Shown: one piece after another, positions 15,301-18,300 of the stretch | Layout: every line of letters begins with the position of its first letter | Numbering within the stretch: position 1 is the stretch's first letter | The notes under the pieces: generated by a model | What the model saw: the letters and a program-made list of their open reading frames with translations, nothing else | Told to the model about the DNA's origin: nothing | Databases searched by the model: none | Assembly: GCF_009914755.1 (NCBI RefSeq) | Contig: NC_060934.1 | Source of the DNA: the human T2T-CHM13v2.0 reference genome, Homo sapiens | Reading direction: 5' to 3' (one strand) | Length of the DNA: 64,000 nt | Position numbers and translations under genes: made by a program

Positions 15301-18300
15301 GGCAACAAGAGTGAAACTCCATCTCACACACACACACACACACAAAACACAACAACAACAAGAAAACCACCCTGAGAAGCCCAAGAGTTTGAAAGAAAAA
15401 TCTAAGCCAGGGCTGGATGTGGTGGTTCACACCTGTAATCCCAGCCCTTTGGAGGCCAAGGCGGAAGGATCACTGGAGCCCAGGAGTTTGAGACCACCCT
15501 GGGCTATATAGTGAAACCCCATCTCTGCTCAAAAAAGACAGAAGAAAAATCTAAATCAGGAAGTCTGTAGCTTTGGAAGGAGAAGGCGGGAACAAAGAAC
15601 AGGATGGTGTAGGTGACAGGAATTGGGAGCCAGGCCAGGAGAGTGGGGCAGGAGTATCAGGGACCAGCAGAAAGGAGCAATTGAAAGCTTTGCATCAGCC
15701 TTTATGTGCTCCAGGTAGTAGCGTGGAGAAAACAAAAAGCACCTGTGAAGGGGTGGGTTGCCCCTCCACACCTGTGGGTGTTTCTCGTAAGGTGGAATGA
15801 GAGACTTGGAAAAGAAAAAGACACAGAGACAAAGTATAGAGAAAGAAATAAGGGGACCCGGGGAACCAGCGTTTAGCATATGGAGGATCCCGCCAGCCTC
15901 TGAGTTCCCTTAGTATTTATTGATCATTCGTGGGTGTTTCTCGAAGAGGGGGATGTGTCAGGGTCACAAGACAATTGTGGGGAGAGGGTCACAAGACAAT
16001 TGTGGGGAGAGGGTCAGCAGACAAACACGTGAACAAAGTTCTTTGCATCATAGACAAGGTAAAGGATTAAGTGCTGTGCTTTTAGATATGCATACACATA
16101 AACATCTCAATGCTTTACAAAGCAGTATTGCTGCCTGCTTGTCCCACCTCCAGCCCTAAGGCGGTTTTTCCCTATCTCAGTAGATGGAACATACAATCGG
16201 GTTTTATACCGAGACATTCCATTGCCCAGGAACGGGCAGGAGATAGATGCCTTCCTCTTGTCTCAACTGCAAGAGGCATGCCTTCCTCTCATACTAATCC
16301 TCCTCAGCACAGACCCTTTACGGGTGTCGGGCTGGGGGACGGTCAGGTCTTTCCCTTCCCACGAGGCCATATTTCAGACTATCACATGGGGAGAAACCTT
16401 GGACAATACCTGGCTTTCCTAGGCAGAGGTCCCTGCGGCCTTCCGCAGTTTTTGTGTCCCTGGGTACTTGAGATTAGGGAGTGGTGATGACTCTTAACGA
16501 GCATGCTGCCTTCAAGCATCTGTTTAACAAAGCACATCTTGCACCACCCTTAATCCATTTAACCCTGAGTTTGACACAGCACATGTTTCAGAGAGCACGG
16601 GGTTGGGGGTAAGGTCACAGAATCTTAAGGCAGAAGAATTTTTCTTAGTACATAACAAAATGGAGTCTCCCATGTCTACTTCTTTCTACACAGACACAGT
16701 GACAATCTGATCTCTCTTGCTTTTCCCCACATTTCCCCCTTTTCTTTTCGACAAAACCGCCATCGTCATCATGGCCCGTTCTCGATGGTCGCTGTCTCTT
16801 CGGAGCTGTTGGGTACACCTGCAGACATGTGATAAGTGAATCTACTGATGGGACTGACAGTAGGTACTTCTACCAACCAATTTTGGACTGCAGGCATTAA
16901 ACATCCTGGTGCTCTCCCTAGGCAAATAGGAGGATAACGATACCCAATGGAAATATTTATCATCATCCCTTCTTCCTCAGGTTTGGCAGGGCAGCGATCA
17001 TCTGTGGGGCCAGGTACCCATACGCTATCATTAACATATACTTCTATAGGATTATCCATCCATGTGACTGCCCGAATTAAGGGCGGGAAAGGCACATAGG
17101 CCCAGTAGGTATAGTTAGCTGCAGCTGCTCCTGCAGGCATAGGGAGACTTACCACCGTTGATACAATCATCAAGGCTGCAAGCAGCATACTCTCTGGGGT
17201 TTGTGTCACCTTTGTGTTCTCTAGATATTTTGTAGCTAACTGCGTCAGCTTCTTTAGTTGTGCCCAAGTTGGCGGCTCTGCCTTCTTGGTGGATGGCAAC
17301 TTCATCTGTTCTTCTGACGTCACCATTTTGTTCATCTTGTGAGTCAACGGTGCTCGACTGTGGTGTCTCCGTCTCCGCGGAGGTGCTTTTCTTTGCATCT
17401 CCGATGGGTTCATTGTAGAACTTCAAATGTCTAGTGCGTATCCAAACAGGAAGCTGATTTTCTCCTGGTGAAACACAAGCAAAACCTCTCCCCCACGTTA
17501 TCACCTTCCCTATTTCCCATGTCTTATTTTTATTATCTTTCCACCAAATTAGTTTTCCTTCATGTGGGCTGTTCTTTTTACCAGTAAGATGTTGTTCTGC
17601 AGAAGTAGTAGTCTGATTTCTATAAATGTTTAAAAAATTTAAAGTATAGAGTGCTAGATTAAGTTGCATCTGAGGAGTGGTACACTCCTTACTGTCTCCT
17701 GCTTCTTTTTGTTTAACTAATTGAGTTTTGAGTGTTCTATTAGTTCTTTCAACTATGGCCTGTCCTTGGGAATTATAAGGCATTCCTGTTGTATGTGAAA
17801 TTTTCCACTGACTTAAGAATTTTTGGAAAGCTTTACTACAATATCCTGGTCCATTGTCAGTTTTGATTTTTTCCGGAACTCCCATTACAGCAAAACAAGA
17901 CAATAAATGTTTTTTTAACATGGGAAGTACTTTCTCCTGTTTGGCAAGTTGCCCATATGAAATGTGAATAAGTATCAACTATTACATGAACATATGATAA
18001 TTTTCCAAATGAAGGTACATGCGTGACATCCATTTGCCATAATGCATTAGGACACAGACCTCTGGGATTAACTCCTGCCTCTTGAGTGGGCAGGTGTAAG
18101 ACTTGACACTGGGTGCAATGTTGTACGATATCTTTTGCCTGTTTCCATGTGACATCAAATTTGTTTTTTAATCCTGCTGCATTTACATGAGTCAAAGCAT
18201 GAAGTTCTTGTGCTTTTATGAATGCAGATGATACCAGTAAGTCAGCTTGTTCATTTGCTTTAGTCAAAGGCCCTGGTAAATTACTGTGTGCTCGAATATG

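What the first reader, a model, noticed from the sequence alone, without database searches (positions are those of the whole stretch)
16800..16850. env deletion looks like a spliced-out intron: provirus copied from an alternatively spliced genomic RNA
Seen: on the minus strand, ...TTC ACT TAT CAC ATG is joined directly to TCT GCA GGT GTA CCC at 16826/16825, removing most of SU and TM. Established (from memory of HML-2): TCTGCAGGTGTACC is the start of the last rec/np9 exon after the TTGTTAG acceptor, and Env continues FTYHM-VSGMS, i.e. ATG|GTAAGC, a strong GT donor. Inference: an RNA that kept gag-pro-pol was spliced from this cryptic env donor, not from the rec donor (still intact as GTG|GTAAGT at 17153/17152), and was then packaged, reverse transcribed and integrated by integrase rather than by L1.
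Basis: partly seen in the sequence, partly recalled or inferred. Interest (0 to 1): 0.8.

Follow-up and report, generated by a model that had tools for sequence, protein, structure and literature searches.

The report
Provirus copied from partly spliced RNA
This human endogenous retrovirus copy lacks exactly one intron of its env gene, so it was almost certainly copied from a partly spliced viral RNA and inserted by the viral integrase; that reading was published in 2013, but its odd front end seems not to have been described.

Summary
On the minus strand CACATG joins TCTGCAG at 16826/16825. In 8 of 8 intact HML-2 copies from the same genome, the 1370-1373 missing bases begin GTAAG and end TTGTTAG. 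Only one base (G) is ambiguous.

The element is ERVK-17 at 10q24.2, lying antisense in an ABCC2 intron. Schmitt et al. 2013 (PMC3590776) describe the same 1,372-bp deletion, the alternative donor, the missing rec acceptor intron part, the "retroviral fashion" origin and the 214-aa Env/Rec ORF.

What I add:
- The whole 7,389-bp element (23134-15746) has TG...CA ends, a 6-bp target duplication CAGGTG, a complete U5 at its 3' end and no poly(A). That means integrase, not L1.
- The 5' LTR is not simply missing. It is replaced by an inverted R-U5 copy running from the U5 tip to the RNA-seq-mapped start site. A 4-base overlap joins it to a sense U5 copy that carries the same private variants.
- This is the shape expected of a self-primed minus-strand strong-stop DNA integrated through two U5 ends. 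I found no description of it in the papers searched.

The parts
23135..23140 (-). Upstream copy of the 6-bp target-site duplication CAGGTG
22995..23134 (+). Inverted R-U5 arm. It is LTR-sense on the + strand, so antisense to the provirus. It runs from the exact U5 tip (TG at 23134 on the minus strand) inward to the first G of GGGATCC. That is K108 LTR position 823, 6 nt upstream of the E box, which corresponds to the RNA-seq start site called '826' in PMC4379556.
22995..22998 (-). 4-nt overlap TCCC shared by the inner end of the inverted arm and the start of the sense arm. This is the turn-round point.
22894..22998 (-). Sense U5 arm (K108 LTR 858-968). It carries the same 6-nt deletion and TTTCCTAAGT variant as the inverted arm. 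No U3 is present at the 5' side.
22873..22893 (-). TC dinucleotide followed by the primer-binding site TGGTGCCCAACGTGGAGGC. That this is a lysine-tRNA site is recalled, not tested.
22781..22790 (-). Major 5' splice donor ACG|GTAAGC; the exon ends at 22786. It was not used in the parental RNA, because gag-pro-pol is retained.
17118..22750 (-). gag-pro-pol, collinear with intact copies at about 98% identity. gag starts with ATG at 22750, but its frame breaks after about 32 codons, with a stop at codon 65. pol is split into three open stretches.
16769..17413 (-). 214-aa ORF made of Env residues 1-196 joined in frame to the 18 residues of the last rec exon. Pfam matches HERV-K_REC over residues 20-105 and HERV-K_env_2 over residues 115-200.
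   Evidence: Schmitt 2013
17147..17155 (-). Regular rec splice donor GTG|GTAAGT, intact; the exon ends at 17153.
16825..16826 (-). Exon-exon-like junction CACATG|TCTGCAG. 1372 bp of env are missing, corresponding to K108 positions 7038-8409.
15746..16731 (-). Complete 3' LTR of 986 bp, running TGTGGGG...CCCCTTCA and preceded by the polypurine tract. It includes U5 to its last CA. It has a 25-nt tandem duplication near 16016.
15740..15745 (-). Downstream copy of the 6-bp target-site duplication CAGGTG. No poly(A) follows it.

Best explanation

Its parent RNA kept the gag-pro-pol intron. It was spliced once, from a normally unused donor in env (ATG|GTAAGC, 327 nt downstream of the rec donor) to the regular rec/np9 acceptor. 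That RNA still carried the 5' leader. It was packaged, reverse transcribed and inserted by the viral integrase, leaving an intron-less env and an in-frame 214-aa Env/Rec ORF.

Shown: the GT...AG limits, the exact acceptor, the integrase marks and the unique junction. Inferred: that splicing came before integration, and that the RNA was packaged.

A second, less certain part (about 0.6) concerns the 5' end. One minus-strand strong-stop DNA reached the RNA 5' end, folded back on a 4-nt match (TCCC/GGGA) and copied itself through U5 and the primer-binding site. It then served in place of the plus-strand strong-stop DNA. The resulting linear DNA carried a U5 tip at both ends, and integrase joined both.
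For: Splice origin:
- 8 of 8 intact copies show GTAAG at the start and TTGTTAG at the end of the missing 1370-1373 bp, with one ambiguous base.
- The donor is one of only 4 GGTAAG sites in 9.47 kb; two of the others are the known donors.
- Schmitt 2013 aligned the locus to rec mRNA and reached the same reading.

Integrase:
- CAGGTG sits directly outside both TG...CA termini.
- The 3' LTR is complete to the U5 tip, and the flank has no poly(A).

5' end:
- The inverted arm begins at the exact U5 tip next to the duplication. Its inner end is 6 nt upstream of the E box, where PMC4379556 places the RNA-seq start site.
- The two arms overlap by TCCC. They differ at 1 position over about 105 nt and share a 6-nt deletion and two substitutions. 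The 3' LTR and K108 lack these.
- That variant U5 occurs nowhere else in the genome: 2 of 2 hits are these two arms.
- The minimum-energy fold of the arm pairs its last 4 nt with the GGGG/A block.
Against: - No RNA evidence was seen that this env donor is used by other loci. Schmitt's two cDNAs map to this locus itself, so they cannot show splicing.
- No sibling provirus carries the junction in this genome: 1 of 1 hit is the locus itself.
- The order of deletion and integration is not directly shown.
- For the 5' model, the fold is weak (z = -0.93, ensemble frequency 0.0004).
- PMC4379556 the canonical start site and 826 an alternative seen at one LTR. My conversion of its numbering rests on one nearby landmark.
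- The difference between the arms and the 3' LTR U5 needs either two different co-packaged RNAs or later mutation plus exchange between the arms.
- The review calls self-primed products dead ends that are not seen in virion reactions.
Confidence: 0.85

Rival explanations
1. The env deletion arose during reverse transcription by a template jump of reverse transcriptase, not by splicing.
For: Retroviral deletions by template switching are common (established knowledge). The junction allows one shared base, G. The same DNA shows another reverse-transcription anomaly at its 5' end.
Against: A jump has no reason to start at one of 4 GGTAAG sites and land exactly on the rec acceptor after a pyrimidine tract and AG. 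One base of homology is what any ...G|GT...AG| intron leaves behind.
Confidence: 0.07
2. A normal provirus integrated, and a later genomic deletion removed 1372 bp of env.
For: Large deletions are frequent in old proviruses. The timing is not directly shown here.
Against: The joint chance of these two endpoints is about 1e-7 (one search counts, my arithmetic). There are no flanking repeats. Schmitt 2013 reports no other state of the locus.
Confidence: 0.04
3. The copy was made by LINE-1 machinery from a spliced mRNA, with a 5' inversion by twin priming.
For: The inverted segment starts at the RNA 5' end, and U3 is absent, as in processed copies. The 2q32.1 rec copy shows that L1 can do this to HML-2 RNA.
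Against: The 3' end runs through U5 to the terminal CA and has no poly(A). The duplication is 6 bp, as recalled for HML-2 integrase, and the termini are TG...CA.
Confidence: 0.01
4. For the 5' end only: the palindrome comes from two separate viral DNA pieces, each giving one U5 end to integrase and later joined by end joining. Alternatively, it comes from a jump of one strong-stop DNA onto another minus strand, or from exchange between the arms after a later rearrangement.
For: A 4-nt overlap also fits end joining. Palindrome arms can homogenise by conversion (established knowledge).
Against: A later rearrangement would not place the exact U5 tip against the target duplication. A jump onto the minus strand that made the 3' LTR would give the sense arm that LTR's variants, which it lacks.
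Confidence: 0.3

Closest known systems
ERVK-17 / 10q24.2 as described by Schmitt et al. 2013 (Genome Biol Evol 5:307, PMC3590776; section 16 and passages read)
   Same: Same locus, same 1,372-bp deletion, same alternative donor about 330 bp after the rec donor, same missing acceptor intron part, same 214-aa Env/Rec ORF, and the same proposal of a spliced RNA copied 'in a retroviral fashion'.
   Different: They call the locus '5'-LTR lacking'. In the text I searched they give no target duplication and no inverted U5 for it (0 hits for 'inverted' and for 'palindrom').
2q32.1 retrotransposed HML-2 rec mRNA (Schmitt et al. 2013)
   Same: A DNA copy of a spliced HML-2 RNA.
   Different: That copy is doubly spliced and has under 500 bp of internal sequence, a poly(A) stretch and a 13-bp L1-type duplication. 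Here gag-pro-pol is kept, there is no poly(A), and the duplication is 6 bp.
HML-2 type 1 proviruses (292-bp pol-env deletion)
   Same: An inherited internal deletion that changes the env/rec products.
   Different: The 292-bp deletion removes the rec donor and is not bounded by splice sites (PMC3228705 passage). ERVK-17 keeps that region.
Self-primed minus-strand strong-stop DNA of HIV-1 in vitro (review PMC6088434, passages read; Guo et al. 1997 seen only in its reference list)
   Same: The 3' end of the strong-stop DNA folds back and is extended on itself.
   Different: It is described there as a dead-end product not seen in virion reactions. Here the same architecture sits in an integrated germ-line provirus.
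Spliced integrated retrotransposed elements of LINE-1 (recalled, no call)
   Same: A genomic copy that records an intron removed from the element's own RNA.
   Different: A different element and a different insertion machinery.

Membership tests
HERV-K(HML-2) type 2 provirus | Collinear high identity to intact HML-2 proviruses | tested here: met
   97.9% identity over 6167 bp to the chr7 copy. 98-99% over the env start to the human-specific copies.
HERV-K(HML-2) type 2 provirus | No 292-bp pol-env deletion; rec donor present | tested here: met
   No such gap appears. GTG|GTAAGT is present at 17153/17152.
HERV-K(HML-2) type 2 provirus | Two LTRs | tested here: not met
   The 5' side has no U3. 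It holds only an inverted R-U5 and a sense U5.
Integrase-inserted copy of a spliced retroviral RNA | The missing segment begins GT at a donor-like site and ends AG at an acceptor | tested here: met
   8 of 8 references. The acceptor is the rec/np9 one.
Integrase-inserted copy of a spliced retroviral RNA | No repeat at the breakpoints beyond the splice consensus | tested here: met
   One shared G.
Integrase-inserted copy of a spliced retroviral RNA | Short target duplication directly outside TG...CA ends | tested here: met
   CAGGTG at 23140-23135 and at 15745-15740.
Integrase-inserted copy of a spliced retroviral RNA | The same exon junction is seen in RNA from other loci | not testable with these tools
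   No RNA data are held. No paper found reports this donor.
LINE-1 processed copy | Ends at the poly(A) site with an A tail | tested here: not met
   U5 is complete and the flank reads CAGGTGCTTTTTG.
LINE-1 processed copy | Duplication of about 7-20 bp at an A/T-rich target (recalled) | tested here: not met
   The duplication is 6 bp and G+C-rich.
Self-primed minus-strand strong-stop DNA product | The inverted copy starts at the primer-removal end of U5 | tested here: met
   TGAAGGGG... begins at 23134, next to the duplication.
Self-primed minus-strand strong-stop DNA product | The inverted copy ends at the 5' end of the genomic RNA | tested here: inconclusive
   It ends 6 nt upstream of the E box, which equals the '826' start site of PMC4379556. 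That paper names 793 as the canonical site. Fuchs 2011 and Kovalskaya 2006 are not held.
Self-primed minus-strand strong-stop DNA product | The sense copy is templated by the inverted copy, with microhomology at the turn | tested here: met
   There is 1 difference over about 105 nt, shared private variants and a TCCC overlap.

The most novel reading that the evidence does not exclude
ERVK-17 is a fossil of a failed first strand transfer that was nevertheless rescued. A self-primed minus-strand strong-stop DNA, held to be a dead end from in vitro work, stood in for the plus-strand strong-stop DNA. That gave a U3-less linear DNA with a U5 tip at each end, which integrase inserted into the germ line with a normal 6-bp duplication. 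The 3' LTR U5 differs from both 5' arms. This would then mean the virion held two different RNAs, one of them (or both) partly spliced. I found no description of this 5' structure. Searches; term look-ups. Supplements were not seen.
Probability: 0.5. Interest if true: 0.6.

Novelty: already known. Interest (0 to 1): 0.35.

Why it matters
The env finding itself repeats a 2013 paper, so by that measure it is ordinary. It still shows that a partly spliced HML-2 RNA could complete a retroviral cycle after the human-chimpanzee split.

The added points give that published speculation firm support. They are the 6-bp duplication, the two U5 tips and an inverted arm that spans exactly strong-stop DNA.

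If the fold-back reading holds, this is a natural in vivo record of two things known mainly from test-tube work: self-priming of strong-stop DNA, and integration through two U5 ends.

It also corrects annotations that call the locus simply "5'-LTR lacking" or describe its rec acceptor as point-mutated.

Tried and rejected
- APOBEC-type hypermutation as the cause of the 3' LTR's low BLAST identity (about 94%). Rejected: the substitutions are 32 of 960 with no G-to-A excess (7 G>A against 6 C>T). The rest of the shortfall is indels, including a 25-nt duplication.
- A sibling provirus with the same junction. None found: 1 of 1 hit is the locus itself at up to 3 mismatches, and the control gave 0.
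- A source LTR carrying the arms' U5 variant. None found: 2 of 2 hits are the two arms.
- The nearest LTRs reach only 95% identity among the 40 scored of 2268 candidates.
- A check of what precedes the last rec exon in other copies. I dropped the check.
- The first repeat scan found no LTR pair. This reflects the absent 5' LTR.
- The 19q11 copy (L039) proved a poor reference because it has no 5' LTR in the stretch fetched. I replaced it with the chr7 and chr6 copies.
- Papers on variant HML-2 splicing do not mention this donor in the passages shown.
- Fuchs 2011 is not held.

Full report
**Observation**

Read on the minus strand, the window shows ...AGATTCACTTATCACATG ending at 16826. It is followed at once by TCTGCAGGTGTACCCAACAGC... 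from 16825. The regular rec donor GTG|GTAAGT is intact at 17153/17152.

The window's genome is searchable. The 475 bases upstream of the junction match many HML-2 copies, the best at 98-99% identity. I fetched the env-to-LTR stretch of 8 of the 9 best non-self matches; the second copy of the chr7 tandem pair was left out. In each one the window aligns as two pieces that overlap by a single base.

In 8 of 8 references the upstream piece is followed by GTAAGC (7 copies) or GTAAGT (1 copy). In 8 of 8 the downstream piece is preceded by a pyrimidine-rich tract ending TTGTTAG. The missing stretch is 1372 bp in 5 references and 1370, 1371 and 1373 bp in the others. So the deleted segment begins GT and ends AG. 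The only ambiguity is the G that any ...G|GT...AG| intron leaves behind. There is no direct repeat at the breakpoints.

**Is it more than chance?**

In one intact copy (chr7, numbered from its LTR start) the donor exon ends at 7037 and the acceptor exon starts at 8410. The rec donor is at 6710 and the major donor at 1076. That copy holds only 4 GGTAAG sites (1076, 1301, 6710, 7037) and 11 GTAAG sites in 9.47 kb. A random deletion starting at one of the 11 sites and ending exactly at the acceptor has a chance of about 1e-7 (my arithmetic).

**What the element is**

The provirus lies on the minus strand, antisense in an ABCC2 intron between the exons at 14023-14203 and 25459-25585 (hub annotation). 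It is collinear with the chr7 copy from LTR position 874 to 7037 at 97.9% identity over 6167 bp. After the gap it continues to the end of the 3' LTR. Against two references there is no 292-bp type 1 gap.

Coding state:
- gag starts at 22750, but its frame breaks after about 32 codons, with a stop at codon 65.
- pol is split into three open stretches.
- env opens at 17413 and runs in frame across the junction to a stop. This gives a 214-aa ORF: Env residues 1-196 plus [18 protein letters not shown]. Pfam hits are HERV-K_REC and HERV-K_env_2.

**Already in print**

Schmitt et al. 2013 (PMC3590776; section 16 read in full, plus other passages) describe this locus, ERVK-17 in 10q24.2. Their description includes:
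- a 1,372-bp env deletion;
- the missing intron part of the rec/np9 acceptor;
- a 5' limit that resembles an alternative donor about 330 bp downstream of the rec donor;
- absence of the locus from non-human primates;
- the proposal that a partly spliced transcript was reverse transcribed "in a retroviral fashion";
- the 214-aa Env/Rec chimera.

Subramanian et al. 2011 list the locus as human specific with age N/A (table row).

A 2025 paper (PMC12724133, passages) describes the acceptor of this locus as mutated from AG to GG. The sequence shows instead that the whole intron side is absent.

**Integrase or L1**

On the minus strand the element begins TGAAGGGG at 23134 and ends CCCCTTCA at 15746. 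Directly outside both ends lies CAGGTG, at 23140-23135 and 15745-15740. The 3' LTR is complete through U5, and the downstream flank (CAGGTGCTTTTTG...) has no A run.

This contrasts with the L1-made 2q32.1 rec copy, which has a poly(A) stretch and a 13-bp duplication. In the text I searched, Schmitt et al. give no duplication for this locus.

**The 5' end**

A self-comparison found no 5' LTR. What is there instead:
- **Inverted arm.** Window 22995-23134 is LTR-sense on the + strand. It is an inverted copy of LTR positions 823-968 in chr7-copy numbering.
- **Sense arm.** It is followed on the minus strand by a sense copy of positions 858-968 (22998-22894), then TC, then the primer-binding site.
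- **Overlap.** The two arms overlap by TCCC (22998-22995).
- **Shared variants.** They differ at one CpG position over about 105 nt. They share a 6-nt deletion and a TTTCCTAAGT variant that the provirus's own 3' LTR and the chr7 copy lack. That variant occurs nowhere else in the genome: 2 of 2 hits are these arms.
- **Outer end.** The outer end of the inverted arm is the exact U5 tip, lying against the target duplication. The rearrangement therefore existed before integration.
- **Inner end.** The inner end is the first G of GGGATCC, 6 nt upstream of the E box CTCCATATGCTG. Bhardwaj et al. 2015 (PMC4379556, passages) number that E box 832-843 and report RNA-seq starts "primarily at position 826", which is the same base. 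They the canonical site.

The inverted arm thus has the extent of a full minus-strand strong-stop DNA. It begins where the tRNA primer is removed and ends at the RNA 5' end.

**Proposed mechanism (inferred)**

1. One strong-stop DNA, instead of transferring, folded back. Its 3' TCCC paired with an internal GGGA, leaving a 31-nt loop.
2. It was extended on itself through U5 and the primer-binding site.
3. That 3' end annealed to a minus strand made from a second strong-stop DNA. Both strands were then completed.
4. The product is inverted R-U5, then U5, the primer-binding site, gag through truncated env, and U3-R-U5, with a U5 tip at each end.
5. Integrase processed and joined both tips.

The minimum-energy fold of the arm does pair its last four bases with that G block. 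The fold is not stronger than shuffled sequence, however (z = -0.93).

Self-priming of strong-stop DNA is well documented in vitro for HIV-1. It is described there as a dead end that nucleocapsid protein suppresses (PMC6088434, passages).

The arms differ from the 3' LTR U5. This fits two different co-packaged RNAs. A 2026 preprint notes that the LTR and Pol trees of 10q24.2 have different nearest neighbours, with limited support. Later mutation plus exchange between the arms is an alternative. I put this model at about 0.6.

**Results against, and limits**

- No RNA evidence for the donor in other loci was found.
- There is no sibling copy.
- The timing of the deletion is inferred.
- Primate genomes are not held here.
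- The start-site papers by Fuchs 2011 and Kovalskaya 2006 are not held.
- Supplements were not seen.
- The 3' LTR's low BLAST identity is due to indels and ordinary substitutions, not hypermutation.

**Verdict**

The finding itself is already known. The target duplication and the strong-stop-shaped 5' end appear to be additions to the published account.

Noticed in passing
window 15990-16040 (minus strand): The 3' LTR carries a 25-nt tandem duplication (GACCCTCTCCCCACAATTGTCTT... twice) that is absent from the chr7 and chr6 copies. Together with an 8-nt gap, it explains much of the LTR's low BLAST identity.
   Followed up: partly
window 22550-22750: In this assembly the gag frame breaks about 32 codons after the ATG, with a stop at codon 65. 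Subramanian 2011 lists a gag ORF for this locus. This could be an allele difference or a different ORF definition.
   Followed up: partly
window 32744-33130: An 88% match to the U3 part of the provirus LTR, in the same orientation, lies inside the long masked block 32257-35917. It probably belongs to an SVA-type element with an LTR5-derived part (recalled).
   Followed up: no
L039 (G000:C19:30156000-30165900): The 19q11 copy shows no 5' LTR in the stretch fetched. It has a roughly 70-bp-period tandem repeat upstream instead. Relative to the window it has about 300 extra bases in pol that the chr7 and chr6 copies lack. PMC12724133 also notes that 19q11 lacks an intact 5' LTR.
   Followed up: no
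window 16825-16826: PMC12724133 describes the rec acceptor of 10q24.2 as mutated from AG to GG. The sequence shows that the whole intron side of the acceptor is absent.
   Followed up: yes
window 15746-15900, 22894-23134: All three U5 copies end CCCCTTCA, whereas the chr7 copy ends CCCCTACA. This is a lineage marker of the parent virus shared by both templates.
   Followed up: partly
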